Assembly (NCBI RefSeq): GCF_009914755.1 | Contig: NC_060930.1 | Direction: 5' to 3' (one strand) | Source: the human T2T-CHM13v2.0 reference genome, Homo sapiens | DNA: 64,000 nt | In this document: positions 15,766 to 53,878 of the stretch, piece by piece | How the letters are laid out: each line of letters opens with the position of its first letter | Position numbering within the stretch: position 1 is the stretch's first letter | Notes under the pieces: generated by a model | What the model was told of the DNA's origin: nothing | Database searches by the model: none | Seen by the model: the letters and a program-made list of their open reading frames with translations, nothing else | Position numbers and translations under genes: made by a program

Positions 15766-16770
15766 GGGTGGAGCCAAGATGGCCAAGGAGGAAGAGCTCC
15801 AGTCTACGGCTCCCAGCATGAGCAATGCAGAAGAGGAATGATATCTGCATTTCCAACTGAGGTACCGGGTGCATCTCACTGGGAATTGTCAGACCGGGGT
15901 GCAGTGCACCGAGCCTGAGCCAAAGCAGGGCAAGGCATCACCTCACCAGGGAAGTGCAAGGGGTCAGGGAATTCTCTTTCCTAGCCAAGGAAAGGGGTGA
16001 CGGACGGCACCTGAAAAATCGGGTCACTCCCACCCTAATACTGCACTTTTCCAACAGTCTTAGCAAACGGCACACCAGGAGATTATATTGTGTGCCTGGC
16101 TCAGAGGGTCCTATGCCCACTGAGCCTTGCTCATTGCCAGCACAGTAGTCTGAGATCAAACTGCTAGGCAGCAGCAAGGCTGGAGGAGGGGTGCCCGCCA
16201 TTCCTCAGGCTTGAGTAAGTAAACAAAGCAGCTGGGAAGCTCGAACTGGGTGGAGCCCACTGCAGCTCAAGGAGGCCTGCCTGCCTCTATAGACTCCACC
16301 TATGGGGACAGGGCATAGCCAAACAAAAGACAGCAGAAACCTCTGCAGACTTCAATGTCCCTGTCTGACAGCTTTGAAGAGAGTAGTGGTTCTCCCAGCA
16401 CGCAGATGGAGATCTGAGAACAGACAGACTGCCTCCTCAAGTGGGTCCCTGACCCCCAAGTAGCGTAACTGGGAGGCACCCCCCAGTAGGGGCAGACTGA
16501 CACCTCACATGGCTGGGTACTCCTCTGAGACAAAATGTCCAGAGGAATGATCAGGCAGCAACATTTTCTGTTCAGCAATATCTGCTGTTCTGCAGCCTCC
16601 ACTGCTGATACCCAGGCAACTGGTCTGTAGTGGACCTCCAGCAAACTCCAACAGACCTGCAGCTGAGGGTCCTGACTGTTAGAAGGAAAACTAACAAACA
16701 GGACATCCACACCAAAACTCCATCTGTAGGTCACCATCATCAAAGACCAAAGTTAGATAAAACCACAAAG
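15766..16770 (+). promoter_or_regulatory. E1 5'UTR internal sense/antisense promoter; YY1 motif intact; retains the ~129-bp ZNF93-bound segment (~16524-16649)
   Basis: aagatggcc at ~15776; segment tctgagacaaa...cagcaaactcc is present. Functional assignments are established L1 knowledge. Confidence 0.8.
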
Positions 16771-17787
16771 ATGGGGAGAAAAACAGAGCAGAAAAACTGA
16801 AAAATCTAAAAATCAGAGCACCTCTCCTCCTCCAAAGGAACACAGCTCCTCACCAACAATGGAACAAAGCTGGACGGAGAATGACTTTGATGAGTTGAGA
16901 GAAGAAGGCTACAGATGATCAAACTACTCCGAGCTAAAGGAGGAAGTTTGAACCCATGGCAAAGAAGTTAAAAACCTTGAAAAAAGATTATACAAATGGC
17001 TAACTAGAATAACCAATGCAGAGAAGTCCTTATAGGGCCTGATGGAGCTGAAAACCATGGCATGAGAACTACGTGATGAATGCACAAGCCTCAGTAGCCT
17101 ATTCAATCAACTGGAAGAAAGGGTATCAGTGATGGAAGATCAAATGAATGAAATGAAGCAAGAAGAGAGTTTAGATAAAAAAGAATAAAAAGAAACGAAC
17201 AAAGCCTCCAAGAAATATGGGACTATGTGAAAAGACCAAATTTATATCTGATTGGTGCACCTGAAAGTGACGTGGAGAATGGAACCAAGTTGGAAAACAC
17301 TCTGCAGGATATTATCCAGGAGAACTTCCCCAATCTAGCAAGGAAGGCCAACATTCAAATTCAGGAAATACAGAGAACACCAGAAAGATATTCCTTGAGA
17401 AGAGCAACTCCAAGACACATAATTGTCAGATTCACCAAAGTTGAAATGAAGGAAAAAATGTTAAGGGCAGCCAGAGAGAAAGGTCAGGTTACCCACAAAG
17501 GGAAGCCCATGAGACTACAAGCTGGTCTCTCGGCAGAAACTCTACAAGCCAGAAGAGAGTGGGGGCCAATATTCAACATTCTTAAAGAAAAGAATTTTCA
17601 ACCCAGAATTTCATATCCAGCCAAACTAAGCCTCATAAGTGAAGGAGAAATAAAATTCTTTACAGACAAGCAAATGCTGAGAGATTTTGTCACCACCAGG
17701 CCTGCCCTAAAAGAGCTCCTGAAGGAAGCACTAGACATGGAAAGGAACAACAAGTACCAGCCACTGCAAAAACATGCCAAATTGTAA
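16771..17787 (+). pseudogene. L1 ORF1p, disrupted
   Basis: ATG at 16771; frameshift/stops in the N-terminal half; C-terminal 186 aa open (RPNL...TPRHIIVRF...HAKL). Confidence 0.93.
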
Positions 17788-17850
17788 AGACCATCCAGGC
17801 AAGGAAGAAAGTGCATCAACTAACGAGCAAAATAACCAGCTAACATCATA

Positions 17851-21667
<3,817 letters not shown>

Positions 21668-22049
21668 ACAATGAAAACACATGGACACAGAAAGGGGAAC
21701 ATCACACACTGGGGCCTGTTGTGGGGTCGGGGGAGGGGGAGGGATAGCATTAGGAGATATACCTAATATTAAATGACGTGTTATTGGGTGCAGCACACCA
21801 ACATGGCACATGTATATATATGTAACAAACCTGCACATTGTGCACATGTACCCTAAAACTTAAAGTATAATTAAAAAAAAAACAAAAAACAAATTCTAGG
21901 GGTTACACACTTAAAAAAAAAAAGAAAATGTGAAGAGAGGAATTGGAGAAAAAGGAAATAGTTCCTTGGCAATAGTGGTTCTGGATATTCACTCCAATTA
22001 TAATACTTCATTCTTAGGGCCAGGTCGGTATGTCCTTTCCTGACCTTTC

Positions 22050-22315
22050 TGCATAGTGAATTCATATTCACACTTCAAACCCATGCTTACCATATCTGCA
22101 TGTGTGGATTCTTTTTGGTCTTTCAGATAGAACAAATCATTTTCTGCTTTATATGTGTTTTTAGCATAAACAGATTGTAGTACATAATTTCTTCTCCACC
22201 AGGCAGTAACTTCATGACAGCAAGTGTTGTGATTTTCTAGAATTCTCAGTGCTAAGTATAGTGTCTGCCTATCATTTAGTAATGTTCAGTTAATGTTTGT
22301 TGATCTAAACTGAAT
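22050..22315 (+). mobile_element. L2 3' end fragment
   Basis: tctcagtgctaagtatagtgtctgcc...gttcagttaatgtttgttga. Confidence 0.6.
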
Positions 22316-24077
22316 TATCTTAAAGAAATGTAGGGTCCATGTTTTCCCTTCCATTTCCAAAGGCATAATTGTGTGCCCTGCACCATGCCTTCTCCCTCAC
22401 CTCCCACTCTCCTGTCCACCCACCGGGAGCCTCAAACAGGATTCCTGTGGGAAGTTTGGCAAAGCCCTTGTTTTCATTTTTACTTTTATTATCATAAGTT
22501 CTTCCAGTTGAAGTCAGAGGGGCCCTCGCTGATGCATACAGCCAAGGAGTCTGCTTGGTGTCTTTGATGTGTTCCATCATATTGATTTGTGGTGGCATGA
22601 AATGGGTGACCCCATAATGTTCCTTTTTTCCATATATCATTAGGCCCAGCTAAGGGCTTTGTGAGTTTTCTACTCAGGCAACTGTGTTTTCCTAATATGC
22701 CTTCACCAAATGCTGACATCATTTCATCTCCAGAATCATATCAGTTATATTAGAAACAGTCTTTTATTGCACTTTGGAAGCATTTTGAGATGACATATTA
22801 TTTATTTCTATATTCAATCGGCTGTTCTTTTCTTTCTCTGGCTCTTCAATTACAGCTGTTGAACCACAGCTGTAATTTGGAGTCTTAGCTCAAAGTGACT
22901 GCTCTGTGTTTTTCTCAAGGGTCAGAAAATCGAATCTGTATTCTGCTAGTCAGGCACACTGTAAAGAGTGCCACCTTCACCTGGGTTGTTTGGAAGGCCC
23001 ATAGGTCTTGGTAACTTGGTGGATTTTGATGCACAGCCATGAGTTCCACAGGGCATTAATTCTGCTCCATTGCCTGTCCATTTGAACTAAAAAGTGCCAG
23101 TGAATACATTATACTTGAGGACCTCCAAATCCCACTTTAGTTCTTGAGGTCACTGATGTTTGCTATCTTTCGGTATCCAGAGCACATTTGAAGTGTGTTG
23201 CTATTGTGTCCTTTTTCATTTATCTTTGACAAATGCATCAGCTCTTGCTCTTGAGGAAATTAACATTTCCTTTGGTTCACAAAGCAAGATTATTTGGAAA
23301 GGTCAATGTATGTGGCACAGCACTCTGTTATGTTTCTACAGAGACACGTGTCTGGTATATTTCAGTGATGCCTCAGCTTAAAGGCTAGCTTATTTATACT
23401 GAATAGCCACATAGAAATGATCGCTATAAATTCATTTGTTATTTGAAAGAAACTGCTTTCATGTAGATTTTATGAGGGAATCCATTAAAAGAAATATTAT
23501 CAAACCTGAGCTTAAGGAGCCATTTCTGTTCTCTTTAAATCAGATTCTAAGTAACAGATGTATTTCTCCATTCTAACATGACACTGATTCAGAATGTGTC
23601 ATAGAGTGGATTAAGAAAGAGAAACCCATAAAAGATTGACCATAGAGACTTCAGGAGTTTGTCAATCCTGCAGAGAAAAAGCCTATAGGAAAAAAAAGCA
23701 AACGTTGAACACAGAAAGGAGCAGTCAGGATGGCAACACAGAGATAAAAGAAGCTACCTTTTCTCTCCTTTCAAGACATGGAACCATGCACAAGATTGAC
23801 TTGCCTCTGGGCTATGGAAGATCTGAAATGCTGCCCTAAGGAGGTGCCAGAGGATTTCCTCAGCCCAGTGGGTAAAGTAAAAATCTTCAATTTGATTTTG
23901 ATGGCAGGGAGTGGAGATTTATTCACTTTATATTCTTTTTATGGCTTTCACTGTTCATTATATTTCTTTTAAATTAACTGGTAGAAAACATGCCTGACCT
24001 CTGTGTCAGATACTTTCAGGAGGGCCAGTTGGAGATTGGAAATGGGGTAGGGATTTGAAGGGTGAGATTAGACAGCC

Positions 24078-24230
24078 AGTTTCAACCCTACCTGAATATT
24101 AGAATTTCCAGAGGAGCCCAGACTCCACTCATTGTGATGTCTTCATTAATTGCCTTGGAGTGGAAACTGAATAATCTATTTTTTTAAAGTTCCTCAGTTA
24201 TAATGTGTAGCCAGGCTGGGAACCCTTGAG
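24078..24230. mobile_element. MER5-like hAT fragment
   Basis: atctatttttttaaagttcctcag...aatgtgtagccaggctgggaacc. Confidence 0.55.
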
Positions 24231-24780: not shown

Positions 24781-25609
<829 letters not shown>

Positions 25610-25851: not shown

Positions 25852-27655
25852 TTATTTTTTGTATTTTAAAAATTTATATCTGTTATTTTTTATGAGTTTT
25901 ATTTAAATTCAGGGATACATGTGCAAGATGTGCAGGTTTGTTACATAGGTAAATGTATATCAAGGGGCTTTGTTTTATATTCATCAGCCAGGTATTAAGC
26001 CCAGTATCCATTAGCTATTTTTCCTGACACTCTTCCTCCTCCAAACTTCTGCCCTCTGGTAGGCCCCAATGTGCATTGTTCCTCTTTATGTGTCCATGTG
26101 TTCTCATCATTTATAAGTCAGAACGTGTGGTATTTGGTTTTCTCTTCCTAGGTTAGTTTGCTAAGGATGATGGCCTCCAGCTCCACCATGTCCCTGCAAA
26201 AGACATGATCTTTTTCCTTTTTAAGGCTGCATAGTATCCCATGGTATATATGTACCACATTTTCTTTAACCAGTCTATCATTGATGGACATTTAGGTTGA
26301 TTCCATGTCTTTGCTACTGTGAATAGTGCTACAGTGAACATATGTATGCATTTATCTTTATAATAGAAGAATTTATAGTCCTTTGGGATACCCATTGATG
26401 GGTTGAATGGTATTTCTGTCTCTAGGTCTCTGAGGAATCACCACACTGTCTTCCACAATGGTTGAACTAATTTACACTCCCAAAAGCAGTGTAAAAGTGT
26501 TTCTTTTTCTCTACAACCTCACCAACATCTTTTATTTTTTGACTCTTTAATAACAGCCTTTCTGACTGGTGTGAGATGGTATCTCATTGTGGTTTTGATT
26601 TGTATTTCTCTAAAGATCAGTGATATTGAGATTTTGAAAATATGATTGCTGGCCATGTGTATATCTTCTTTAGAAACGTGTCTGTTCATGTCCTTTGCCC
26701 ACTTTTTAATGGAGTTGTCTCTTTCTTGTAAATTTGTTTAAATTCCTTATTAAATCCTGGATATTAGGCCTTTGTCAGAGGCATAGTTTGCAAACATTTT
26801 CTCCCATTCTGTAGATTGTCTGTTTACTCTGTTGATAGTTTCTTTTGCTGTGCAGAAGCTCTGTAATTAGATCCCATTTGTCAATTTTTGCTTTTGTTGC
26901 AATTGCTTTTGGCATCTTTGTCATGAACTCTTTGCCCATTCTTATGTTCAAGATAGTACTGTCTAGGTTGTCTTCCAGGGTTTTTATAGTGTTATTCTTT
27001 ACATTTAAATCTTTACTCTATCTTGAGTTGATTTATGTTTATGGTGTAGGGAAGGGGTCCAGTTTCAATACTCTGTATATGGCTAGCCAGTTCTCCCAGC
27101 ATTTATTAAATAGGGAACCCTTTCCCCATTGCTTGTTTTTGTTGGCTTTGTTGAAGATCAGATGGTTGTAGGTGTGTGGTCTTATTTCTGGGTTCTCTAT
27201 TCTGTTCCATTGGTTTATGTGTCTATTCTTGTACCAGTACCATGCTGTTTTGGTTAGGTTACTGTAGCCCTGTAGTATAGTTTGAAGTCAGGTAACATGA
27301 TGCCTCCAGATTTGTTCTTTTTGTTTAGGATTGCCTTGGCTTTTGGGCTCTTTTTTTGGTTCCATATGAATTTTAAAATAGTTTTATTCTAGTTCTGTGA
27401 AGAATGTCAATGGTAGTTTAGCGTCAATAGCATTAAATCTATAAATTGCTTTTGGCATTATGGTCATTTTAACAATACTGATTCTTCCTATCCATGAGCA
27501 TAGAATGTTTTTCTATTTGTTTGTGTCATCTCTGATTTATTTGAGCAGTGTTTTGTAATTTTCCTGTAGAGATCCTCCACTTCTCTTGTTAGTGATATTC
27601 CTAGGTATTTTATGCTTTTTGGGGCAATTGTGAATGGGGGTTCATTCATGATTTG
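25852..27655 (-). mobile_element. 5'-truncated L1PA11-13-like element
   Basis: ORF 26153-26395 is ORF2p C-terminus. TSD catgcctgataatt (25838-25851) / catgcctaataatt (27656-27669). Confidence 0.9.
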
Positions 27656-29092: not shown

Positions 29093-29099
29093 AAGTCTT

Positions 29100-29790: not shown

Positions 29791-29819
29791 AAGAAGACAC
29801 GGAAAGACAGAAATAAGTA

Positions 29820-31610: not shown

Positions 31611-31873
31611 GGTAGTTCCTATGCAGTAAAAAAGAAATATAATGTGAGGCATATCTGTACTTTTAAATTTTCTTATGCAAAAGAAATAGATGATACTGTA
31701 CTGATATGTTTTTATTGAACCCAATATATCTAAAATATTTCCATATGTAGTCAATATAAAAAATTACCAATGAGATAATTTACAGTCTTGTTTTTAATAC
31801 CAAGTCTTCAAAGTCTAATTTTACACTTATACCATATATTAGTTTGGAAGCTAAATTTTCATCAGAAATACTT

Positions 31874-32389
31874 TTTTTAATTTTATTTGTTTTTATTTTT
31901 AACAGATATTTATTTCTTAGACTGTTGAATCACCTTCTATTCCATAGAACAGTTACATTTCAGGACACATTAATGTCCTCCACTTGAAAATAATAATAGT
32001 GATCATGTTCAAATGAAGGGTTTCTCAAAGTGAAGTCTGCATACCCCCTGAGGACTTGATTCCAGATGTTCATTCCAAATGCAGATTCCAGGGCTCTCTG
32101 TCGAGAGTTTTATTTAACCTGCCTAGAGGAGGTCCAGATATCTTCATTCTATTGAGTTCCTATAGAGATTTCTGAAACATGCTAATTAGATTTAGAAATA
32201 TTTCATAATTTGTAAATTTATTTATATATGAAGCTTGAAAAACAGTAGAAAAATGAAATCTAAGTTGTATATAATGAAATGCTTCTGTGGAGTGAGGTGA
32301 TGAGGAACACAGGGTAAATAAAGTCTAACAATAAATAAAAGCATATCACGGAAAACCAAACCTCCCTATTATCCTATCTTCCAGTCTTC
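31874..32389 (-). other. 3'-transduced non-L1 sequence carried by E2 (own AATAAA and A-rich tail; contains a MER5-like fragment)
   Basis: Lies between the L1 tail and the distal copy of the 17-bp TSD. tttatt at 31909-31914; T-rich tract 31872-31900. Confidence 0.88.
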
Positions 32390-32392
32390 TTT

Positions 32393-32435
<43 letters not shown>

Positions 32436-32437
32436 TT
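32390..32437. repeat. (TTTA)n microsatellite derived from the E2 poly(A) tail
   Basis: Directly visible. Confidence 0.95.
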
Positions 32438-32642
32438 ATTATACTTTAAGTTTTAGGGTACATGTGAACATTGTGCAGGTTAGTTAAATATGTATACATG
32501 TGCCATGCTGGTGCGCTGCACCCACTAACTCGTCATCTAGCATTAGGTATATCTCCCAATGCTATCCCTCCCCCCTCCTCCCACCCCACAACAGATCCCA
32601 GAGTGTGATGTTCCCCTTCCTGTGTCCATGTGATCTCATTGT

Positions 32643-36471
<3,829 letters not shown>

Positions 36472-36534
36472 TATGATGTTAGCTGGTTATTTTGCTCGTT
36501 AATTAATGCAGTGTCTTCCTAGTCTCAATGGTCT

Positions 36535-37543
36535 TTACATTTTGGCATGATTTTGCAGCAGCTGGTACCTGTTGTTCCTTTCCATGTTTAGTGCTTCCTT
36601 CAGGAGCTCTTTTAGGGCAGGCCTGGTGGTGACAAAATCTCTCAGCATTTGCTTGTCTGTAAAGTATTTTATTTCTCCTTCCGTTATGAAGCTTAGTTTG
36701 ATTGGATATGAAATTCTGGGTTGAAAATTCTTTTCTTTAAGAATGTTGAATATTGGCCCCCAGTCTCTTCTGGCTTGTAGGGTTTATGCCAAGAGATCCA
36801 CTTTTAGTCTGATGGGCTTCTCTTTGTGGGTAACCCGACCTTTCTCTCTGGCTGCCCTTAACATTTTTTCCTTCATTTCAACTTTGGTGAATCTGACAAT
36901 TATGTGTCTTGGAGTTGCCCTTTTCAAGGAGTGTCTTTGTGGCATTCTCTATATTTCCTGAATCTGAATGTTGGCCTGCCTTGCTAGATTGGGGAAGTTC
37001 TCCTGGATAATATCCTGTAGAGTGTTTTCCAACTTGGTTCCATTCTCTCCATCACTTTCAGGTACACCAGTGAGATGTGGATTTGGTCTTTTCACATAGT
37101 CCCATATTTCTTGGAGGCTTTGCTCGTTTCTTTTTATTCTTTTTTCTCTAAACTTCCCTTCTCACTTCATTTCATCTTCCATTGCTGATACCCTTTCTTC
37201 CAGTTGATCGCATCGGCTCCTGAGGCTTCTACATTCTTCACGTAGTTCTCGAGCCTTGGTGTTCAGCTCCATCAACTCCTTTAAGCACTTCTCTGTATTG
37301 GTTATTCTAGTTATACATTCTTCTAAATTTTTTTTCAAAGCTTTCAACTTCTTTGCCTTTGGTTTGAATGTCCTCCCGTAGCTCAGTGTAATGTGATCGT
37401 CTGAAGCCTTCTTCTCTCAGTTCGTCAAAGTCATTCTCCATCCGGCTTTGTTCCGTTGCTGGTGAGGAACTCCGTTCCTTTGGAGGAGGAGAGGCGCTCT
37501 GCTTTTTAGAGTTTCCAGTTTTTCTGTTCTGTTTTTTCCCCAT
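36535..37543 (-). pseudogene. L1 ORF1p, frameshifted
   Basis: MGKKQNRKTGNSK start; frameshift near 37330. Confidence 0.93.
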
Positions 37544-38450
37544 CTTTGTGGTTTTATCTACTTTTGGTCTCTGATGATGGTGATGTACAGATGGGTTTTT
37601 GGTGTGGATGTCCTTTCTGTTTGTTAGTTTTCCTTCTAACAGACAGGACCCTCAGCTGCAGGTCTGTTGGAGTACCCTGCCATGTGAGGTGTCAGTGTGC
37701 CCCTGCTGGGGGTTGCCTCCCAGTTAGGCTGCTCGGGGGTCAGGGGTCAGGGACCCACTTGAGGAGGCAGTCTGCCCGTTCTCAGATCTCCAGCTGCATG
37801 CTGGGAGAACCACTGCTCTCTTCAAAGCTGTCAGACAGGGACATTTAAGTCTGCAGAGGTTACTGCTGTCTTTTTATTTGTCTGTGCCATGCCCCCAGAG
37901 ATGGAGCCTACAGAGGCAGGCAGGCCTCCTTGAGCTGTGGTGGGCTCCACCCAGTTCGAGCTTCCTGGCTGCTTTTTTTACCTAAGCAAGCCTGGGCAAT
38001 GGTTGGCGCCCCTCCCCCAGCCTCACTGCCACCTTGCAGTTTGATCTCAGACTGCTGCGCTAGCAATCAGTGAGACTCCGTGGGCGTAGGACCCTCCGAG
38101 CCAGGTGCGGGATATAATCTCATGGTGTGCCATTTTTTAAGCCCGTCGGAAAAGCGCAGTATTTGGGTGGGAGTGACCCAATTTTCCAGGTGCCATCCGT
38201 CACCCCTTTCTTTGACTAGGAAAGGGAACTCCCTGACCCCTTGCACTTCCCGCGTGAGACCATGCCTCGCCCTGCTTCGGCTCATGCATGGTGCATGCAC
38301 CCACTGACCTGTGCCCACTGTCTGGCACTCCCTAGTGAGATGAACCGGGTACCTCAGATGGAAATGCAGAAATCACCCGCCTTCTGTGTCGCTCACGCTG
38401 GGAGCTGTAGACCGGAGCTGTTCCTATTCAGCCATCTTGGCTCTTCCCTC
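37544..38450 (-). promoter_or_regulatory. E2 5'UTR promoter; antisense promoter points rightwards; 129-bp ZNF93 segment absent (junction ~37670)
   Basis: ggtctgttggagtaccctgcc is contiguous; more CpGs retained than in E1/E3. Confidence 0.8.
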
Positions 38451-38664
38451 TTTCATCAGAAATACTTGATCTGTATTTAGATTTCATAAATATCATAAAT
38501 TTATGGTTGAAAAGTATATTCACATACTCAATAACCAACTTAACTATTGGTTTTTAAAATTAAATTTAAATTAATTTAATGAAGTTAAAAAATTTTCCCA
38601 GTTGCATTAGCTATATTTTAAATGCTCATTAGCTGTATGTGGCTATTGGACAGTGAAGCTCTAG

Positions 38665-39133: not shown

Positions 39134-39475
<342 letters not shown>

Positions 39476-40735
39476 TTAAGTGCCTGGAATTGATCCTGCA
39501 CAGAGTAGTCATTTAAGAAATACCTATTAAATGAACAAGTTGGAACAACCAAGGGACTAAATATCACAAGGGAATAGAAAATTGAATACTAAAAGTAAAT
39601 GTTTTATAGGGCTTTGGCTGACTACTACCTGATCATATGCTTCTAAAGTAATGACTGTTCAAATGAACATTTTAGGCATACTCTCAGATATACCTTTTGA
39701 TATGGATGAAAAGCATCAATTTTAGCTAAAAGTTTAGTGTGTAAGAGTGACTCTGAGATATTAAAAATAAAATTCTTCATTTTCAAAAGGACACTGTTAT
39801 AATTCAAATTAATATAGTCTTTGTTGTTGTTGTTGTTTCTTCTCATTATTTGCATTTTAAGCCCATCTCTATGTTTTGAGATTTTGAAGACTGTGAAAGT
39901 CACATGAAAGGTATAAAAAAGATTACCCGGTATTCCTCCCTCCTAGCAAATCTTTCTCTCTCAACAGTTATGCGTCAGAGAATTCTATTAGTGGACAATG
40001 AAGAGGCAATCTAGTTCGTGTGATGTCGCTTCCCCGTTTGGTGACACTTTTCTATAGCATTCTTCAGGCTATTTCATTTGACACTTTGGAACAGCTGCCA
40101 AGTCCTTTCCTGCTCCCTGTAAACAAGGCTGTCATTCACAGAGCTTTCCCTTACCTTGCATAGGGAATGGAGGTTAAAGACTTCGGAAATCGAAAACAGA
40201 ACAGCCATCAAAAGGACTTTTAATACCAGGAGAATTATAGGAGAATAATTGAATCAAATAAAATAAGAATATAAATAGACCGTGTTACAAACTGCATTTG
40301 TTAAAAGGTTTCATATGAGTTGAAGTTTTGTGTTACCTGGGAAGAGTAATAAAAAGAAATGAAATAGATTGAAAATGGTTACCCTTGAGAAGTTATTTCT
40401 GACTTTTTGGCAGGATTCCCCTGTGGCTGCGGATGCCCATATAGTGTGTCTCATCCCTACTTTCTTTCAACTTCAATTCTGCTTTACAAGTAAGATTTCT
40501 GATAGTTTTTTTTTTCCCCTTAGAGTGTATTTGATTTATCATTTAGTTTAGTGGTTAAAGAAATGAGACAGGCGTTTGTATCTGGGGAAATACTGACACT
40601 TTTAGGCTTCTGATAGGTGGCCTTTTAAGGTCAACTACTCTAAGAGGAATCAAGAGCATTTTTTTTTTTTTTTGGACAGATCCTGTTCAATCTGTATCTG
40701 AAGATACTAGAAACAGGAATGAGAAGAGTAGAGAA

Positions 40736-41144
40736 GGATATTGTTTGGATGTTTGTCTCCTCCAAATCCTATATTTAAATGCAATTCCCAATGTTGGAGG
40801 TGTTTGAATCATGGAGGGTGATCTCTTATGAATGGCTTAGGGCCATCGCCTTGGTGATAAGTGAATTCTCACTCTGACTTCACGTGATATCTGCTTGTTT
40901 CAAAGAGTGTAGCCCCTCCCTTTCTTTCTCTCTTTTGCTCCTGCTCTCATCGTGTGACATGCTGGCTCTCTGTCAACTTCCACCATTATTGAAAACTTCC
41001 TGAAGCCTCACCAGAAGCCAAACAGATGTCGGTGCCATGCTTTCTGTACAGCCTGCAGAACCCAGAGCCAATTAAACCTCTTTTCTTTGTAAGTTACACA
41101 ATTTCAGGTATTCCTTTAGAGCAACACAAAAATGGTCTAATACA
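40736..41144 (+). mobile_element. MSTB-like MaLR solo LTR
   Basis: gatattgtttggatgtttgtc...gagccaattaaacctcttttc...ggtctaataca. Confidence 0.88.
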
Positions 41145-41389
41145 AGGACTTTTAAGAAAGAAATACAATCTCATACATACACATATACAAATACGCAGCT
41201 GATGGAGAAGGAAATGGAGAGATTTTGCATCACAGTGTTTAATAAGCTTCTTAAATGCAAGGCACATTGATAACATATGGACATTTTACAAAAGACTGGC
41301 TGGTTAACTTATAAAGGTCTTTTGATTTTGTAGGTCTCAAACTGAATATTCTTTGATTCCATGAGTCTCATATGGCATTATCATTATTA

Positions 41390-43150
41390 TTAATTCAACA
41401 AATAGTAATAAGAGCTTACTATATTCAGAGTATTGTTCTAGACACTGGATTTAGAATAAAAAATGAAGAAGACATGGTAATTTGCTTGCAGAGTTTGTAT
41501 CTCTAGTAAGGGTAGAGATGCACTAGACAAATTTACAATTAAAAAGTGTAAAAAATGTATTTAAAAAAGGAGGAAGACGAAATTTGGTTAAGAAATTAGG
41601 TAATATTTAATCTCAAACAGGAGGGATAATAAGAAACTACTCTGGCAAAGAACATGGTAGATGGAACAGGGGTGCCATCTTACTTTAGGCAGATTGAAAT
41701 TGGGGAAATTTTTAATGCAGCAACAGATAACTAATATACTATTACATTCTTTCCACTCTACAAGCTGCCTATTTTCTGAGAGCTATTAAATATTTACAAT
41801 TTACAATGGTAATTATGAAGGTCCAAGGTAGGAAATACCTTAATTTGCTCTAGTAAAGGAAAAGTCCATGTGATTATAGTTTATAAGTGGGGGAATGACA
41901 CTGGATGAGGTTGAGGATGTAGTCAGGGAGTTGTGAGCTTGTTATTGAGCTTAAGAGTCATTTTTTTAGTTGATTTTTCTGGCTACTGTGTGAAGAATGG
42001 ATTAGTGGGAGACAAAACTGAAAAAGGGAGCTATTAAGTATTATAGATGAAAGATGGTAGGTTGGCAGCATTGAACATAGAGGTAAGTGCATGAATTCAA
42101 GACACATTTTGGAGGTAGACTATAGAGAACTTTTTATTGGGTTGAATATGGAGAGAGTTCATGGGAGTAGAAGAAATCAAGGATAACACCCCAGTTAGTT
42201 TCAGGCTTGAGTATCTATGTGGATGGAGAAGCCAGGGACAGTAATGTTTTGGGAATGAAGAGTTCTGTTGTAGACATGTTAAGTTTAACATGCATGTGTG
42301 ACAACTGGAGACCTCAACTTAACTGCTGGATATATGAATCAAGAGGCATAAATGTGGGATTCTTTGACATTTATATAGATTTTCATGTGTTGGAAGTAGA
42401 TGAGCAATTTGGAGTAGAGGAAAAAGATGGCATTGGACTGAGTCCTGAGAAATAGTAACATTTATAAAACAGGCAGAAGAGGAAGAGTCAGAAAAGGAGA
42501 CTGAGCAGAAGTCACCAGAGTGGTAGGAGGAAGACTGAGATGGTGTGGTGTCCTAGGAACCAAGGGAGGAGAGTATGTTCATAGGATGGAATGACTACCT
42601 GATTGGATGTGGGATTAAGATAAAGATAAGTAAGCTTCCACTGTAAATGGTGAAAGATGATAATTAATACTGATAAATGTAATATCAGTATAATAATGGG
42701 ACCAAAACCCAACTAGAATGAATAAAGGCAAAAATGAAAGATGGTAAAACAGAGAAATCAAAAATAAGCATCTGCCTTGGAGGTTTTGCCCAGGAAGATC
42801 AGATAAATGGGGTTAAGGAAGAGCGTTTTTAGAATAGCGGCATGAAGGCATATTGATACGTTTCTGAAATTAATATAAAGAGAGGGATGAATTGGTGATG
42901 CAAGAAAGAGTAGAAACTATTGGAAGTAAAATTCTTTAGTAGTTGAGAGGGCATGGGGTATTAAGGTATTGGCCATAGAGAGAAGCATGGATGGGACTTT
43001 GTGGATACAGATGCAGATTGATTGGTGGGTTTGGTGGGAAGATAGTGAGAATGTCTTTGATTGCTTCAATTTTCATAGTGAGGTCACTGATAATAATGAC
43101 ATGAATAAAGGGAAGAAGGAGACTTAAAGCCAGTGGCTGGAGTCTTTAAG
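41390..43150 (-). mobile_element. Degenerate L2 LINE fragments
   Basis: L2 3' end attcaacaaata...ttgttctagacactgg; body motifs gaaatcaaggataacaccc, gactgagtcctgag. Confidence 0.7.
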
Positions 43151-43775
43151 GCCAGAAGAACGTGAATGTCAGTAATAATAAACTTTTCCATGAATATATC
43201 TCTCCTCTTGGATGTTTTGTTTCCACAGTGTAAAGGATAAAATATGCTAATTTTTTCTTCTCTATGATTTCCCTCCTGTCTGGCTTCCTGTCTGGCTCTT
43301 TGTTTTTTAGTAACATTAAAAGACTCTTGGAAAGTTTGACCAGAGCATATGGAGAAACATGAGTAGGTTCATTTACAGTTAGCATAACCAGAGAGTTGAA
43401 AGTAGTGTCTACAGTATCCCTCTGCTTCAATGAACCTTTGGAGCCTCCACCAGAAGGAAAATGATATGACTGAATTTAATTGCCTTGTGGCAAAAGCAGT
43501 AAAAATTTACCTGAGAAGTTATCTTACGTTAAAATGCTATATCTTGCTCTTATGATGTTGCAAAACAAACAGAAACTCCTAGAGTTAGGAGAAAAAAATT
43601 GACAAAAATATATAATATTTAATTTTTTTCTTCTTAAATGGAGAAATGTAAATCAAAGTCATACCCACACAGAGTGATTAATGCTTGAATTTTAGCCAAT
43701 GCATCCTAGAAAACAATTGTAAATATAACAGTAGTTATATAAGAGGCAGGTTTTAGAGTGTAAAGAGCAAAAATA

Positions 43776-44190
43776 TGTACTAGTTATCCATAATGGCATA
43801 ACAGATTTCCCCAAACCCATAGCTTAAAATAATTTATTATTTCATTATTGATGTGGGTCAGGAATTAAGGAGTGGCTTAGCTGGATGATTCTGGGTCTTG
43901 GTCTCTTACGAGGTTTAATCAGCCTGAGGTTGTTAGCTGGGGCTGCAGTCTCATCTGAAAGCTCAAGCAAGGGAGGATATGCTTCCAAGCTTACTCATGG
44001 AGTTGATAGCAGACCTCAGTCCCTGGGCACATAGGCCTCTTCATAATCTTCATGAATGTCATATGGCTTTCAGCTAGTTTCCTTAGAGTGAGTGATGGGA
44101 GAGGGAGGGAAGGGAGGAGGGGCCTACATAAAGATGTGAATACCAAGAGGTGAGAATCATTGCAGATGATTGTGGAGGCTGGCTATCACA
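43776..44190 (-). mobile_element. MLT1G/H-like MaLR solo LTR
   Basis: tgtgggtcaggaatt...ggcttagctgg...ggaggctggctatcaca. Confidence 0.75.
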
Positions 44191-45957
44191 GTGGTTTTCA
44201 AATATACAATATCCTCACCATTTGTCTGTGTAATTTTGGAGAATCAGTTAACATTTTTGAGATGCAATTTTCTCATTTGGTAGATCTCTAGCAACTTTTC
44301 TTGCTCTAAAAAAACTAGCCTATTCCCTAAACATTGTTTATACAGGTGGCTAAAAAGTGAAATTGCAGTTTTCATCTACCTTCTTAACTATACATTTTTC
44401 AGTGTTGATGGATAACTTTGGCAAGATTACAGAAAATTTATAAGGGAATGAATACTCGTCAATCAACCATAGAGAAGAGTTTCCAAATTCTGTGAAGATA
44501 TTTTAAAGCAGAAGATTCAAAATGATATTTGAGAATAGTTAAACCACTGAATATCGTTCATATTTAGGCTACCATTATCTTTTTTAAATAACAGATTTAT
44601 TGAGATATATTTACATACTATATAATTTACCCACTTACAGTGTACAATTTAATGGTTTTTAATACATTCACAGGAGTGTGCAATCTTCCTCACAGTCAAT
44701 TTTAAAACGTTTTCATCCTCCAAAAAGAAACTCTATACCCATTAGCAGTTGTTTCTCATCACAACTATCGTCTGCCACCATTAATATACTTTCATCTCTG
44801 TAGATTTGCCTACTCTGGACTTTTCTTATAACTTGAATATTATAATAGGCACTCTTTTGTGTCTAGCTTCTTTAAGTTAGCAAGTTTTCAAGATTCACCC
44901 ATGTTGTAGTACATGTTGGTACTACATTATCTTTATTGCTGAATAATACTCCATTGCAGGATACACCACATTTTACTTGTTCATTCAACAACGGATAAAT
45001 GCATTGATGAATATGTGATTTGATTCCACTTTTTGGCTATTATGAATAATGTTGCTATGAACATTAGTATATAAGTTTTTGTGTGAACATGCATTTTCAT
45101 TTCTCCAGCATATATATTTAGGAGTGGAATTGCTGGTTCATATGGTAATTCTGTGTTTAATATTTTGAGGAACTGTCAAACTGTTTTCCAAAGCAGTTGC
45201 ACCATGTTACATTCCTCCCAGCAATGTATGAGACTCCAATTTCTGCACATCAATGCCAACTGTTTTTGTCTGTCTTTTTTATTACAGTCATCCTAGTGGA
45301 TGTGAAGTGGTATTTCCTTGCATTTCCCTAATGGCTAATAATGTTGAGCATCCTTTTATGTGCTTGTGGGCCATTTGTTATCTTCTTTGGATATATGTCT
45401 TTTGAAATCCTTTACCCATCTTCTTTTTATTTGGTTTAGTATATCTCTGTGTTTTCATTATTGATTTTTTAAAATAAATTTTGTTGTATATATTTAGGGT
45501 ATACAACATGATGTTATGGGATACACAGAGTAAAAAGGTTACTATAATGAAGGAAATTAACATATCCATTATTTCACAGAGTTATCCATTTTTTGTGTGT
45601 GTGGTGAGAGCAGGTAAAATCTATTCATTTAGCATGAATCCCATATACAGCACAATTTTATTACCTATAGTCTGCACATGATACATTAAATCTCTAGACT
45701 TATTCATCCTACATATCTTCTACTTCATATTTTCTTTCTTTTTTTTATTATTATTATCCTTTAAGTTTTAGGGTACATGTGCACAACGTGCAGGTTTGTT
45801 ATATATTTATACATGTGCTATGTTGGTGTGCTGCACCCATTAACTCATCACTTAGCATTAGGTATATCACCTAATGCTATCCCTCCCACCTCCCCCGACC
45901 CCACAACTGTCCCTGGTGTGTGATGTTCCCCTTCCTGTGTCCATGTGTTCTCACTGG

Positions 45958-49776
<3,819 letters not shown>

Positions 49777-49839
49777 TATGATGTTAGCTGGTTATTTTGC
49801 TCGTTAGTTGATGCACTTTCTTCCTAGCCTGGATGGTCT

Positions 49840-50855
49840 TTACAATTTGGCATGTTTTTGCAGTGGCTGGTACTGGTTGTTCCTTTCCATGTTTAGTGCT
49901 TCCTTCAGGAGCTCTTTTAGGGCAGACCTGGTGGTGACAAAATCTCTCAGCATTTGCTTGTCTGTAAAGGATTTTATTTCTCCTTCACTTATGAAGCTTA
50001 GTTTGGCTGGATATGAAATTCTGGGTTGAAAATTCTTGTTTTTAAGAATGTCGAATATTGGCCCCCAGTCTCTTCGGGCTTGGAGAGTTTCTGCCAAGAG
50101 ATCCACTGTTAGTCTGATGGGCTTCCCTTTGTGGGTAACCAGACCTTTCTCTCTGGCTGCCCTTAACATTTTTTCCTTCATTTTAACTTTGGTGAATCTG
50201 ACAATTATGTGTCTTGGAGTTGCTCTTCTCGAGGAATATCTTTGTGGCATTCTCTGTGTTTCCTGAATTTGAATGTTGGCCTTCCTTGCTAGATTGGGGA
50301 AGTTCTCCTGGATAATATCCTGCAGAGTGTTTTCCAACTTGGTTCCATTCTCCCCATAACTTTGAGGTACACCAGTTAGATGTAGATTTGGTCTTTTCAC
50401 ATAATCCCATATTTCTTGGAGGCTTTGTTCATTTCTTTTTGTTCTTTTTTCTTTAAACTTCTCTTCACACTTCACTTCATTCATTTTGTCTTCCATTGCT
50501 GATACCCTTTCTTCCAGTTGATCGCATCAGTTACTGAGGCTTGTGCATTCGTCACGTACTTCTCATGCCATGGTTTTCAGTTCCTTCAGGTCCTTTAAGG
50601 ACTTCTCTGCATTGGTTATTCTAGTTATCCATTCGTCTAATTATTTTTCAAAGTTTTTAACTTCTTGCCATTGGTTCAAACTTCCTCCTTTAGCTCAGAG
50701 TAGTTTCATCTTCTGAAGCCTTCCTCTCTCAACTTGTCAAAGTCGTTCTCCATCCAGCTTTGTTCTGTTGCTGGTGAGGAGCTGCAGTCCTTTGGAGGAG
50801 GAGAGGCACTCTGATTTTTAGTGTTTCCAGTTTTTCTGCTCTGTTTTTTCCCCAT
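49840..50855 (-). pseudogene. L1 ORF1p, disrupted (C-terminal 218 aa open)
   Basis: ORF 49840-50496 (EIWDYVKRPNL...HAKL); ATG at 50855. Confidence 0.93.
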
Positions 50856-53563
50856 CTTTGTGGTTTTATCTACCTTTGGTCTTTGATGATGGTGACGTAC
50901 AGATGGGTGTTTGGTGTGGATGTCCTTTCTGTTTGTTAGTTTTCCTTCTAACAGTCAGGACCCTCAGCTGCATGTCTGTTGGAGTTTACTGGAGGTCTGC
51001 TGCAGACCCTGTTTGCCTGAGTATCAGCAGTGGTGGCTGCAGAACAGCAGATATTGGTGAACTGCAAATGCTGCTGCCTGATCATTCCTCTGGAAATTTT
51101 GTCTCAGAGGAGTACCCGGACTTGTGAGGTGTCAGTCCACCCCTACTGGGGGCTGCCTCCCTGTTAGGCTACTTGGGGTTCAGGGACCCACTTGAGGAAG
51201 CAGTCTGTCCATTCTCAGATCTCAAGCTGCATGCTGGGAGAACTAGTACTCTCTTCAAAGCTGTCAGACAGGGACATTGAAGTCTGCGGGGGTTATTGCT
51301 GTCTTTTGTTTGTGCCCTGCCCCCAGAGGTGGAGCCTACAGAGGCAGGCAGGCCTCCTTGAGCCATGGTGGGCTCCACCCATTTTGAGCTTCCCTGCAGC
51401 TTTGTTTACCTACTCAAGCCTGAGCAATGGCAGGCGGCCCTCCCCCACTCTCACTGCCACCTTGCAGTTTGATCTCAGCCTGCTGTGCTAGCAATGAGCG
51501 AGGCTCCATGGGTGTAGGCCCCTCCAAGCCATGTGCGGGATGTAATCTCCTGGTGTGCCATTTGATAAGCCCATTGGAAAAGTGCAGTATTAGGGTGGAA
51601 GTGACCCGACTTTCCAGGTGCCGTCTGTCACCCCTTTCTTTGACTAGGAAAGGGAGTTCCCTGACCCCTTGCACTTCCCAGGTGAGGCGATGCCTTGCCC
51701 TGCTTCAGCTCATGCATGGTGTGCTGCACCCACTGTCTGGTACTCCCCAGTGAGATGAACCCGGTACCTCAGTTGGAAATGCAGAAATCACCCATCTTCT
51801 GCGTCACTCACTCTGGCAGCTGTAGACTGGAGCTGTTACTATTCGGCCATCTTGGCTCCACCCCCCTACTCTGTATTTTCTGACCTACATCTCCCATTTC
51901 CTTACTCAAAACATGTCCTTGGCAAACACTGTTTCATTTTCTATTTCTGTATATTTGAATTTTTAAAAAATATTTCAGATCTACATGAGATCATGCAATT
52001 ATTTTTCTTCCTGTGTTTGGTTTATTTCACTAAGCATAATTCTTCTAAGCTCATCCATGTTGTGATGAATGACAATATATCATTCTTTTTTTAGGGCTGA
52101 ATAATATTCCATTCTATATATGTACTACAGTTTAAACATTTGTCCACTGATGATCATTTAGATTGTTTCCATATCTTGGCTGTTATGAATAATGCTGCAG
52201 TAAATATGGGAGTGCAGACATCTTTATGAAGTGGTGATTTCATTTCCTTTGGGTATATTCCCATAAGGGGGATTGATGGTAGTTCTAATTTTAATTCCTT
52301 TAGTTGCCTCCATATTGTTTCTCATAATGGCTGTGCCAAGCTACATTCCTACTGACAGTGTGTAAGAATTCCCTTTTCTCTTTACCTCACCAACATTTGT
52401 TATCTTTTGACTTTTTGACAATAACCATCATAACAGGTGTAATGTGGTATCTTATAGTGATTTTGATTTGCATTCCCAATGATTAGTGATGTTAAGCACC
52501 TTTTCATATACCTCTTGGTCATTTTTATGTCTTCTCTGGGGAAATGTCTATTCAGATCCTTTGCCCATTTTAAAATCAGCTTATTTGTTTTTTTCAGTAT
52601 TGAATTTATGAGTTCTTTATAAATCTTGATTATTAATTCCTTATCAAATTTATGGTTTGCAAATATATTTTCCAATCCTTAAGCTGCCATTTCATTTTGT
52701 TGGTTGTTTCTTTTATTATGTAGAAGCTCATACAAGTCTGGTGGAACATACACGTATCAGTCAATGTGATACATCACATTTACAGAATGAAAGGTAAAAA
52801 CCACATGATCACCTCAACTGACACTGAAAAAGCTTTTGACAAAGTCCAACATTCTTTCTTGATAAAAACTCTCAACAGTGTTAAAAATAATAAATTCAGT
52901 AAAGATACAAAATGCAAGATGCAAAATGAATATAGCAAAATCAGTAGCATTTTTATATATGAATAATGATCTAACTGAAAAAGACATCAAGAAAGCAATT
53001 CCACTTATGATAGCATAAAAAATCCTAGGAATAAATCTAAGCAAGGAATTAGGATATCTATACATAGAAAACTCTAAAGCACTGAAAGAAATTGATGAAG
53101 ACACAAATAAATAGAAATATGTCCTGTGCTCATGGAGCAGAAGAATTAATATGATTAAAATGACCATATTACCCAAAGTAATCTACAGATTTAATGCAAG
53201 CCCTATCCAAACCTAATGGCATTCTTCACAGAAATAGAAAAAACAATCACAAATTTTATATGGAAACGTAAAAGACCCTGAATGGCCAAAACAATTTTGA
53301 GAAAGAAAACACTGGAGGCACCACACTTCCTGATTTAAAATATATTACAAAGCTAAAGCTCATCACAACAGTATGGTACTGACATAAAAACAGACCCATA
53401 GACCAGTGGAACAGAATAGAGAGCCCAGAAGTAAACCCAAATACATGTGGTCAACTAATTTTTGACAAAGACACCAAAAAAGAACAATGGGGAAAATGAC
53501 AATCTCTTCCAATAAATGGTGCTGGGAACGTTGAATTTCCACATGCAAAATAATAAAATTGGG

Positions 53564-53845: not shown

Positions 53846-53878
<33 letters not shown>

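What the first reader, a model, noticed from the sequence alone, without database searches (positions are those of the whole stretch)
15766..51866. Three independently inserted full-length L1s share private mutations in a non-tree-like mosaic: probable local gene-conversion network
Seen: E1, E2 and E3 have different hosts (L2, Charlie5/MER33, L1MA), different TSDs and different subfamily diagnostics, yet share variants in all pairings. All three: DKFQQH (19671/34637/47945; recalled consensus DKIQQ), PKSIEY (consensus KSTEY), ELQQIY (consensus ELKQ). E1+E2 only: [12 protein letters not shown]...RQSTKW (20879-20975 / 33345-33440), ARALRQ, 1-bp deletion atgtctttgtaggg (21561/32740). E2+E3 only: caagaacacccttc frameshift (35405/48710), MPFFTE, ARRDWG. 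E1+E3: many (separate finding). Inference: incompatible sharing patterns cannot all arise by descent from source elements, so repeated ectopic conversion among neighbours is the simplest explanation. It continued after the younger E2 inserted.
Basis: partly seen in the sequence, partly recalled or inferred. Interest (0 to 1): 0.8.

Follow-up and report, generated by a model that had tools for sequence, protein, structure and literature searches.

The report
Neighbouring L1 repeats exchanged sequence patches
Three old, broken LINE-1 copies lying within 36 kb next to the chromosome 6 centromere have copied short stretches of sequence into one another, a known kind of repair event (ectopic gene conversion) that is unusually well documented here because older duplicate copies of the same region on chromosome 3 and on the other arm of chromosome 6 show what the elements looked like before.

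Summary
Their "private" status holds only in part. The ELQQIY word occurs 707 times in the genome and PKSIEY 185 times. The MPFFTE base is in 5 of 38 dispersed copies.

Three shared haplotypes are truly local:
- The E1/E2 32-mer occurs only in E1 and E2.
- The E2/E3 25-mer occurs only in E2 and E3.
- The DKFQQH T 31-mer has 4 exact copies genome-wide, 3 of them here.

The region is a pericentromeric segmental duplication, with paralogous blocks on chr3 (about 91.5 Mb) and chr6p (about 57.5 Mb). E2 inserted after the chr3 copy split off: chr3 has an empty site, and E2 has a 15-bp target duplication and a 3' transduction from chr10.

Against its two paralogs, E1 gained ten consecutive E2 alleles at 20881-20979, inside 146 bp of perfect E1/E2 identity. 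The control paralogs gained none. On chr3, the E1 and E3 paralogs exchanged patches independently.

Verdict: local ectopic gene conversion is real. It is a new example of a known process, and most E1+E3 sharing is older and unresolved.

The parts
15766..21923 (+). E1: full-length, decayed L1PA-type element of the older sequence type, acceptor of the main conversion tract. It predates the segmental duplication; paralogs lie at C3:91508596-91514799 and C6:~57539276-57545469.
32381..38451 (-). E2: full-length L1PA-type element of the younger sequence type. Its best dispersed relative is 96% identical. It is the donor of the main tract.
31872..32380 (-). 3' transduced sequence carried in with E2, plus a second poly(A). 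Window 31894-32385 matches C10:52564141-52564632 at 96%.
31857..31871 (.). 15-bp target-site duplication of the E2 insertion, 3' copy. The other copy is at 38452-38466. On chr3 the two flanks abut, giving an empty site.
38452..38466 (.). 15-bp target-site duplication of the E2 insertion, 5' copy.
45721..51866 (-). E3: full-length, decayed L1PA-type element of the older sequence type. It predates the chr3 duplication; its paralog lies at C3:~91485165-91491324.
20866..21011 (+). Conversion tract in E1 (acceptor): 146 bp identical to E2. The minimal tract 20881-20979 holds ten consecutive alleles that equal E2 and differ from both E1 paralogs.
33307..33452 (-). The same tract in E2 (donor). It keeps the young-type alleles of E2's relatives and carries five changes seen together nowhere else.
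19656..19686 (+). 31-mer around the T at 19671 (DKFQQH) in E1. The same 31-mer is in E2 (34633-34663) and E3 (47941-47971). It has only 4 exact copies genome-wide, and the paralogs of E1 and E3 carry A.
34633..34663 (-). T-allele 31-mer in E2.
47941..47971 (-). T-allele 31-mer in E3.
35400..35424 (-). 25-mer with the AAGAACA form of the A-run in E2, shared only with E3 in the whole genome.
48705..48729 (-). The same 25-mer in E3. It is absent from the chr3 paralog of E3.
19883..19883 (+). C (ARALRQ) carried by E1, its chr6p paralog and E2 (E2 position 34435) and by 0 of 38 panel copies. Candidate single-site E1-to-E2 transfer.

Best explanation
Three separate L1 insertions lie in a pericentromeric duplicon, and they have repeatedly served as repair templates for one another (non-allelic, or ectopic, gene conversion). 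E1 and E3 are old and in inverted orientation. E2 is younger and lies between them.

A break in one copy is repaired by copying tens to a few hundred bases from a neighbouring copy that is about 92% identical. The acceptor then carries a short patch of the donor's private and subfamily alleles, while the rest of the element keeps its own lineage.

Shown:
- One E2-to-E1 tract of 99-146 bp.
- An E2/E3 patch unique in the genome.
- One base (T at 19671) now present in all three copies but in none of their paralogs.
- Independent, two-way patchy exchange between the E1 and E3 paralogs in the chr3 copy of the block.

Inferred:
- The direction of the E2/E3 patch (E2 to E3).
- Single-site E1-to-E2 transfers (19883, 18247).
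- That the scattered single shared sites are micro-tracts.
- That the main tract is fairly recent, because it has no difference in 146 bp.

Most E1+E3 similarity is older than the duplication, and its origin is not resolved.
For: Independence of the insertions:
- E2 has its own 15-bp target duplication, a ~490-nt 3' transduction matching chr10 at 96%, and an empty site in the chr3 paralogous block.
- The flanks of E1 and E3 do not align beyond chance: local scores are 20 and 20, against shuffled maxima of 28 and 32.
- No global homogenisation. All three pairs differ by 8.0-8.5%. E2 is 96% identical to a chr2 copy.

Main tract:
- E1 and E2 are 100% identical over the 90-nt query. The best of the other 38 scored places is 96% (1743 candidates, 40 scored).
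- The 32-mer with four of the five changes has 2 exact matches in the genome.
- In the same stretch E1 carries young-type alleles at 20951, 20968, 20969, 20973 and 20979, where E3 and both E1 paralogs carry the old type (E3 has a 1-base gap at 20968).
- Among 134 alleles that E1 acquired since it split from its paralogs, ten consecutive ones (20881-20979) equal E2 only.
- 17 consecutive E1=E2 sites; 0 of 20000 shuffles reach this.

Control by paralogs, counting non-CpG lineage-specific changes to a panel-rare state that equal E2:
- E1: 11 of 102, of which 9 equal E2 only.
- chr6p paralog: 0 of 68.
- chr3 paralog: 0 of 73.
- Fisher p = 5e-5.

Other local sharing:
- T at 19671 is in E1, E2 and E3. 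L058, L044 and L059 have A. The 31-mer has 4 exact genome-wide copies, against 416 within one mismatch.
- The E2/E3 25-mer has 2 exact matches. Of 420 matches within two mismatches, none lies at the chr3 E3 paralog.

Replicate on chr3: in 681 nt, 10 of the 18 states in which the E3 paralog departs from E3 and from the panel majority are shared with its inverted neighbour L044. Eight of these have 0-2 panel carriers. None is shared with E2.
Against:
- From the three sequences alone, E1-E3 and E2-E3 show no significant run: 1672 and 2974 of 20000 shuffles reach the observed runs.
- Outside the main tract, the E1=E2 rare sites are singletons (17519, 17752, 18890, 19955, the 1-bp deletion). About one same-site, same-base coincidence is expected by chance (my estimate from the counts). 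The 1-bp deletion lies in a CC run.
- The test of E2 as acceptor is weak: 20 of 112 private non-CpG states equal E1 or E3, against 24 of 261 in six relatives, p = 0.02.
- E1-only sharing of rare states with E3 (5 sites) is no higher than that of the control paralogs (4 and 5). At 19203/19217 a clustered change in the paralogs' ancestor is an equally good reading.
- The chr6p paralog alone shares four to five states with the E3 lineage, although no E3 flank was found on chr6p. This is unexplained.
- The panel is small: 38 copies picked by likeness to one 161-nt piece of E1, plus one relative of E2.
- The genome search scores only its best candidates and missed the chr6p paralog.
- Only 681 nt of the E3 paralog and 4221 nt of the chr6p E1 paralog could be read.
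- One assembly only; read-level support was not checked.
Confidence: 0.85

Rival explanations
1. Descent only. All shared variants are diagnostics of L1PA subfamilies or rare source lineages, plus parallel CpG decay. The three copies never exchanged sequence.
For: - ELQQIY (707 exact copies), PKSIEY (185) and MPFFTE (5 of 38 panel copies) are dispersed variants.
- Most E1+E3 rare variants, including a 10-bp deletion, are also in E1's chr3 paralog, so they are old.
- Single variants of the E1/E2 haplotype, and one-change relatives of the E2/E3 form, exist in dispersed copies.
Against: - The full E1/E2 32-mer and the E2/E3 25-mer each occur only in the two neighbours.
- E1's two paralogs and E2's closest relatives all lack the E1/E2 changes. 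E1 also switches to young-type alleles only inside the tract.
- T at 19671 is missing from the paralogs of both E1 and E3.
- The controls show 0 of 141.
Confidence: 0.05
2. Assembly or polishing artefact. Reads from one L1 copy were used to correct another, creating false shared patches.
For: Nothing was seen that points this way. Only one assembly was examined and no reads were available.
Against: - The copies differ by about 8%, so long reads place uniquely.
- The patches are bounded by lineage-specific sites on both sides.
- The same kind of patchy exchange is seen between the paralogous pair on chr3, with post-exchange private changes inside the patches.
Confidence: 0.03
3. E1 and E3 are two copies of a single insertion made by an old inverted duplication, so their sharing is simple common ancestry. 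Only E2 is a separate element.
For: - E1 and E3 share many old-type and rare alleles (92 of 171 diagnostic sites show the pattern old/young/old).
- Their target-site repeats look alike: AGAAAATATGA occurs at E1's 5' edge and E3's 3' edge.
Against: - The flanks do not align beyond chance on either side.
- This reading would not explain the E2-E1 tract, the E2/E3 patch, or T at 19671 being absent from the paralogs.
Confidence: 0.04
4. Parallel mutation at hotspots. The same bases changed independently in neighbouring copies.
For: - About one same-site, same-base coincidence is expected between E1's and E2's private changes (my estimate).
- The shared 1-bp deletion is in a CC run.
- CpG sites recur.
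Against: - Ten consecutive sites include a two-base codon change.
- Non-CpG transversions are shared.
- There are no such matches in 141 control changes.
Confidence: 0.03

Closest known systems
Non-allelic gene conversion between neighbouring Alu elements (Aleshin and Zhi 2010, as cited in PMC6598467 and PMC8230782; I read passages of both)
   Same: - Short patches are copied between nearby, similar retrotransposon copies.
- The effect is strongest within about 10 kb and depends on identity.
- Both directions between older and younger copies are reported.
- The result is a tree that conflicts with the insertion history.
   Different: - Here the partners are 6-kb L1 elements, 10-30 kb apart and about 92% identical. 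Two of the three pairs are inverted.
- The evidence comes from paralogous segmental duplicates, not from orthologous species or genome-wide statistics.
- PMC8230782 states that most such studies concern Alu.
[quoted passage not shown]
   Same: LINE copies act as templates for break repair and leave short converted tracts. The citing paper mentions tracts as small as 13 bp.
   Different: That is an induced break in cultured cells with dispersed donors. This is a germline, evolutionary record between neighbours. I did not read the primary paper.
Concerted evolution of duplicated genes and segmental duplications by interlocus gene conversion (Teshima and Innan 2004; Mansai et al. 2011; seen as cited in PMC6598467)
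   Same: The rate depends on distance and identity, and the gene tree conflicts with the true history.
   Different: There is no overall homogenisation here, only scattered patches. The three copies remain about 8% apart.

Membership tests
Non-allelic (ectopic) gene conversion | Donor and acceptor are separate, non-allelic homologous loci | tested here: met
   E2 has its own target duplication, a 3' transduction and an empty site on chr3. The flanks of E1 and E3 are unrelated.
Non-allelic (ectopic) gene conversion | A contiguous tract in the acceptor carries the donor's alleles and is flanked by the acceptor's own lineage alleles | tested here: met
   E1 20881-20979 holds ten consecutive E2 alleles. 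Old-type or E1-private sites lie on both sides, at 20865 and 21066-21073. 0 of 20000 shuffles reach the run.
Non-allelic (ectopic) gene conversion | The pre-conversion state of the acceptor is known from an independent copy | tested here: met
   Both paralogs of E1 (L058 on chr6p, L044 on chr3) carry the unconverted alleles. For E3 this is known only over 681 nt and from pattern searches.
Non-allelic (ectopic) gene conversion | Non-reciprocal: the donor is unchanged | tested here: inconclusive
   In the tract, E2 keeps the young-type alleles of its relatives. Its five extra changes have no outside reference. The chr10 source element could not be read.
Non-allelic (ectopic) gene conversion | Timing shown by orthologous loci or population data | not testable with these tools
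   No other primate or human assemblies are held.
Full-length primate L1 (L1PA-type) insertion | 5'UTR, ORF1, ORF2, 3'UTR, poly(A) and target-site duplication | tested here: met
   About 6.1-kb colinear copies with decayed ORF1 and ORF2 frames, and poly(A) and target repeats. Subfamily names (L1PA3-7) were not assigned. No repeat library was available, and any such name would be recalled.
Segmental duplication (pericentromeric duplicon) | More than 1 kb of non-repeat flank at 90% identity or more elsewhere in the genome, colinear across the block | tested here: met
   - chr3 block: window 8001-15765 at 95%, 38460-45720 at 95%, 51873-56663 at 96%.
- chr6p block: window 8001-15765 at 96%, 21964-24085 at 98%.

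L1 3' transduction | Non-L1 sequence lies between the element's own poly(A) and a second poly(A) plus target duplication, and matches a unique locus elsewhere | tested here: met
   Window 31894-32385 matches C10:52564141-52564632 at 96%, followed by a second A-run and the 15-bp repeat. Whether an L1 sits next to the chr10 match was not tested.

The most novel reading that the evidence does not exclude
The roughly 100-bp ORF2 segment at E1 20875-20979 may be a recurrent break-and-repair hotspot whose repair is mutagenic.
- In this one homologous stretch, E2 carries five lineage-specific changes in 65 bp.
- E3 carries about eight changes that its chr3 paralog lacks.
- E1 was overwritten from E2.

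More broadly, inverted L1 pairs in pericentromeric duplicons may exchange micro-patches in both directions at a rate high enough to bias L1 subfamily assignment and divergence-based dating. The independent exchange in the chr3 copy of the same block points that way.
Probability: 0.15. Interest if true: 0.6.

Novelty: new member of a known kind. Interest (0 to 1): 0.42.

Why it matters
Ages and family trees of L1 and Alu copies are computed as if each copy mutated on its own after insertion. This locus shows, base by base and with internal controls, that neighbouring L1 copies overwrite one another in patches of about 100 bp or less.

About a quarter of the changes on E1's own branch that could be classified equal E2 and/or E3 only: 45 of 134, of which 25 equal E2 only. 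These 45 include CpG sites and changes to common alleles.

Exchange on that scale blurs subfamily diagnostics and can carry frameshifts or amino-acid changes between copies. The three-copy duplicon gives a natural replicate for measuring tract length, direction and rate of ectopic conversion between LINEs. That has been studied far less than for Alu (PMC8230782, passages read). The process itself is known, so the value is as a clean case, not a new principle.

Tried and rejected
1. Old L1 fragments in the window as donors of E3's dense private cluster (46647-46750). The fragment at 26061-27655 matches 2 of 31 E3-private sites and the one at 2-867 matches 0 of 20. A genome search with E3 46640-46760 gives at best 93%, including its own chr3 paralog. 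No donor was found.
2. E1 and E3 as an inverted duplicate of one insertion: the flanks align no better than shuffles.
3. Run tests on the three sequences for E1-E3 and E2-E3 were not significant.
4. E2 as acceptor of old-type alleles gave only a weak excess, p = 0.02, with a high background in one control (10 of 56 in L017).
5. L011 was dropped from all counts after because it contains extra sequence and misaligns.
6. 'All three' C at 18906 was rejected as an alignment artefact of an A-run indel.
As a result the direction of the E2/E3 patch, and of most E3 changes, rests on pattern searches only.
9. Literature: four searches found reviews on Alu and TE gene conversion but no paper on this locus or on neighbour-to-neighbour L1 conversion in the human genome. 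This does not show that none exists, since subscription journals are not covered. Supplements were not consulted.

Full report
**What is there.**
The window holds three colinear, roughly 6.1-kb L1 copies.
- E1 is at 15766-~21923, sense on the + strand.
- The E2 L1 body is at 32381-38451, sense on the - strand.
- E3 is at 45721-51866, sense on the - strand.

All have broken reading frames. In a three-way alignment of 6269 columns the pairs differ by 8.5% (E1-E2, 516 of 6042), 8.0% (E1-E3, 493 of 6141) and 8.2% (E2-E3, 495 of 6015). This is close to a star, with no global homogenisation.

So are the shared 1-bp deletion and the E2/E3 A-run variant.

**A panel of dispersed copies.**
The window's genome can be searched.
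- I fetched 38 dispersed copies found with a 161-nt piece of E1.
- I added the best genome-wide hit of E1 (L044, chr3, 94%) and of E2 (L045, chr2, 96%).
- All were projected onto the three-way alignment.
- One copy (L011) misaligned and was dropped from all later counts.

At most two-against-one sites the pair simply carries the panel's common base. The counts are 194 of 217 classified E1=E2 sites, 203 of 226 E2=E3 sites and 142 of 241 E1=E3 sites. These are private changes of the third element and carry no signal. A minority are shared states that are rare or absent in the panel.

With CpG transitions removed, I counted exclusive sharing against the rate in dispersed pairs.

| Pair | Exclusive shared substitutions | Dispersed pairs reaching that rate |
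|---|---|---|
| E1-E2 | 7 | 2 of 686 |
| E1-E3 | 5 | 7 of 686 |
| E2-E3 | 3 | 22 of 686 |

**Which 'private' variants are private.**
Exact pattern counts over the 3.1-Gb genome settle this.

| Variant | Word searched | Exact genome-wide matches |
|---|---|---|
| ELQQIY | 28-mer | 707 |
| PKSIEY | 23-mer | 185 |
| E1/E2 haplotype across [12 protein letters not shown] | 32-mer | 2 (E1, E2) |
| E2/E3 A-run form | 25-mer | 2 (E2, E3) |
| DKFQQH T allele | 31-mer | 4 (E1, E2, E3, and chr3:90.45 Mb) |

- The MPFFTE base is in 5 of 38 panel copies. ELQQIY, PKSIEY and MPFFTE are therefore ordinary dispersed variants.
- For the E2/E3 25-mer there are 420 matches within two mismatches, and five dispersed copies carry one of its two changes.
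- For the DKFQQH 31-mer there are 416 31-mers within one mismatch. Of the 100 rows listed, 93 carry A, 6 carry T and 1 carries G at that place.
- The best dispersed hits to the E1/E2 stretch carry at most one or two of the five changes, in the 8 top hits read out of 38.

**The region is a segmental duplication.**
L044 carries E1's 3' flank as well as the L1. Flank searches then showed two paralogous blocks.

The chr3 block is colinear and in inverted orientation.

| Window interval | Match on chr3 | Identity |
|---|---|---|
| 8001-15765 | C3:91514800-91522486 | 95% |
| 38460-45720 | C3:91491325-91498606 | 95% |
| 51873-56663 | C3:91480379-91485164 | 96% |

The chr6p block matches as follows.

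| Window interval | Match on chr6p | Identity |
|---|---|---|
| 8001-15765 | C6:57531586-57539275 | 96% |
| 21964-24085 | C6:57545470-57547591 | 98% |

The chr3 block therefore contains paralogs of both E1 and E3, and the chr6p block contains at least a paralog of E1.

On chr3, window 31873 and window 38460 abut at C3:91498599-91498606. The 6.6 kb in between, which is E2 plus about 490 nt on its 3' side, is therefore an insertion specific to chr6q. It is bounded by a 15-bp direct repeat. Its 3' extra sequence matches C10:52564141-52564632 at 96%, which marks it as a 3' transduction. E2 thus inserted after the chr6q and chr3 blocks separated.

**The paralogs as 'before' pictures.**
I could read 4221 nt of the chr6p E1 paralog (L058) and 681 nt of the chr3 E3 paralog (L059).

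Over the 4.2 kb, the distances are L058-L044 3.8%, E1-L058 5.5% and E1-L044 6.1%. The two paralogs are therefore sisters and E1 is the outgroup.

I counted non-CpG changes specific to one of the three copies that lead to a panel-rare state.

| Copy | Rare-state changes | Equal E2 | Equal E3 only |
|---|---|---|---|
| E1 | 102 | 11 (9 E2 only, 2 also E3) | 5 |
| L058 (chr6p) | 68 | 0 | 4 |
| L044 (chr3) | 73 | 0 | 5 |

The E2 comparison gives Fisher p = 5e-5. E1-only sharing with E3 is not above the controls.

Among the 134 alleles that E1 acquired, 25 equal E2 only, 9 equal E3 only, 11 equal both and 89 equal neither. Ten consecutive acquired alleles, at 20881-20979, equal E2 only.
- Five of them are the changes seen together only in E1 and E2.
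- The other five (20951, 20968, 20969, 20973, 20979) are young-type alleles shared with E2's relatives, where E3 and both E1 paralogs keep the old type (E3 has a 1-base gap at 20968).

E1 and E2 are identical over 146 bp (E1 20866-21011 = E2 33307-33452). This is the longest identical stretch of any pair. The run of 17 E1=E2 sites is reached by 0 of 20000 shuffles. This is a gene-conversion tract with E2 as donor and E1 as acceptor.

**The other pairings.**
- **T at 19671.** It is carried by E1, E2 and E3. Both E1 paralogs and the E3 paralog have A. It therefore spread on chr6q after the duplication. One of E2's close relatives (L033) also has T, so E2 may have brought it. That is an inference.
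- **E3 switching to young type.** In the 681 nt, E3 has switched from the old-type to the young-type allele at 19310 and 19574, where its paralog keeps the old type. This fits E2-to-E3 transfer.
- **The E2/E3 25-mer.** It is missing from the chr3 E3 paralog: no match within two mismatches lies in that interval, and all chr3 rows were listed. E3 therefore acquired it, or exchanged it with E2, on chr6q.
- **C at 19883 (ARALRQ).** It is in E1, the chr6p paralog and E2, but in none of 38 panel copies. T at 18247 is in E1, both paralogs and E2. These are candidate single-site E1-to-E2 transfers. About 0.3 such coincidences are expected by chance (my estimate).

**An independent replicate on chr3.**
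In the 681 nt, 18 states of the E3 paralog L059 depart from E3 and from the panel's common base. Ten of them are shared with L044, its inverted neighbour on chr3.
- Eight of the ten have 0-2 panel carriers: 19388, 19680, 19681, 19758, 19761, 19762, 19813 and 19814.
- None of the 18 is shared with E2.

In the other direction, L044 alone among the E1 lineage carries E3-lineage states at 19298, 19541, 19722 and 19925. It has also lost E1-lineage states at 19883 and 19897. The inverted L1 pair thus exchanged patches in both directions in the chr3 block too, without E2.

**What remains open.**
- Most E1+E3 sharing is also in E1's paralogs. This covers 92 of 171 diagnostic sites, a 10-bp deletion and a 2-bp insertion. 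It is therefore older than the duplication. Common source lineage and early conversion cannot be told apart here.
- Outside the main tract, the E1=E2 rare sites are isolated (17519, 17752, 18890, 19955, the 1-bp deletion). There are a few more than the roughly one expected by chance, but none is individually secure.
- The chr6p paralog alone shares four to five states with the E3 lineage, although no E3 flank was found on chr6p.
- E2's five changes in 65 bp and E3's roughly eight private changes in the same stretch are denser than each element's average and have no donor that I could find. E3's changes are not shared by its chr3 paralog, which is 93% identical over 121 nt.
- The genome search scores only a few dozen candidates and missed the chr6p paralog. 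Its 'best hit' lists are therefore lower bounds. The exact pattern counts do not have this weakness.

**Comparison with what is known.**
- Non-allelic gene conversion between transposable-element copies is established, mainly for Alu. The effect is strongest between copies within about 10 kb, and both young-to-old and old-to-young directions are reported (PMC6598467 and PMC8230782, passages read).
- Break repair between LINE copies has been shown in mouse cells (Tremblay et al. 2000, seen only as cited in PMC1920257).
- A 2026 preprint lists gene conversion among the processes that blur old L1 history (PMC13192797, one passage).
- My four literature searches found no description of this locus.

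The finding is therefore a new, well-controlled example of a known process, not a new kind of thing.

**Verdict.**
All motifs are present, but only about half are truly local. Confidence that local ectopic gene conversion shaped these three elements is 0.85. Interest is 0.42.

Noticed in passing
window 8001-24085, 31450-31873, 38460-45720 and 51873-56663: The window is part of a pericentromeric segmental duplication. One paralogous block is on chr3 (C3:91480379-91522486, 95-96%). A shorter one is across the centromere on chr6p (C6:57531586-57547591, 96-98%). The chr6p downstream flank (98%) is closer than its upstream flank (96%).
   Followed up: partly
window 31872-32380: E2 carries a roughly 490-nt 3' transduction whose best match is C10:52564141-52564632 (96%). 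This points to the source locus, or a sibling, of this L1 insertion. Whether an L1 lies next to it on chr10 was not checked.
   Followed up: partly
window 46647-46750 (E3): There is a dense cluster of about eight E3-private changes in roughly 100 bp, in the same homologous stretch as the E2-to-E1 tract. They are not shared by the chr3 paralog of E3 (93% over 121 nt), and no donor was found in the genome.
   Followed up: partly
window 26061-27655 versus E1: An older L1 fragment (79% to E1, opposite orientation, 4-6 kb away) matches 6 of 25 E1-private sites that it covers. It matches only 1 of 25 for E2 and 2 of 31 for E3. This is a possible trace of exchange with a much more diverged copy, or chance.
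   Followed up: no
C3:90452143-90452173 (own genome): This is the only other exact copy of the T-allele 31-mer (DKFQQH). It lies in the chr3 pericentromere, about 1 Mb from the paralogous block. None of the flank searches hit there, and its nature is unknown.
   Followed up: no
L058 (C6:57540990-57545210), E1 coordinates 18180, 18509, 19284, 19610, 19909: The chr6p paralog of E1 alone shares several rare states with the E3 lineage, although no paralog of E3's flanks was found on chr6p. That block may once have held an E3 copy.
   Followed up: partly
E1 coordinates 19201-19217 in L058 and L044: The common ancestor of the two E1 paralogs acquired four changes within 17 bp. This looks like a clustered mutation or a micro-conversion from an unknown donor.
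   Followed up: no
window 15755-15765 and 45721-45745: The 11-mer AGAAAATATGA occurs both at E1's 5' target repeat and in E3's 3' target repeat. Beyond it the flanks do not align better than shuffled sequence, so it may only reflect the A-rich target preference of L1 insertion.
   Followed up: yes
The whole-genome DNA search did not list the chr6p paralog of E1 when E1 itself was the query (35 of 41706 candidates scored). That paralog is about 94.5% identical to E1 over the 4.2 kb later read. Best-hit lists for abundant repeats are therefore incomplete.
   Followed up: yes
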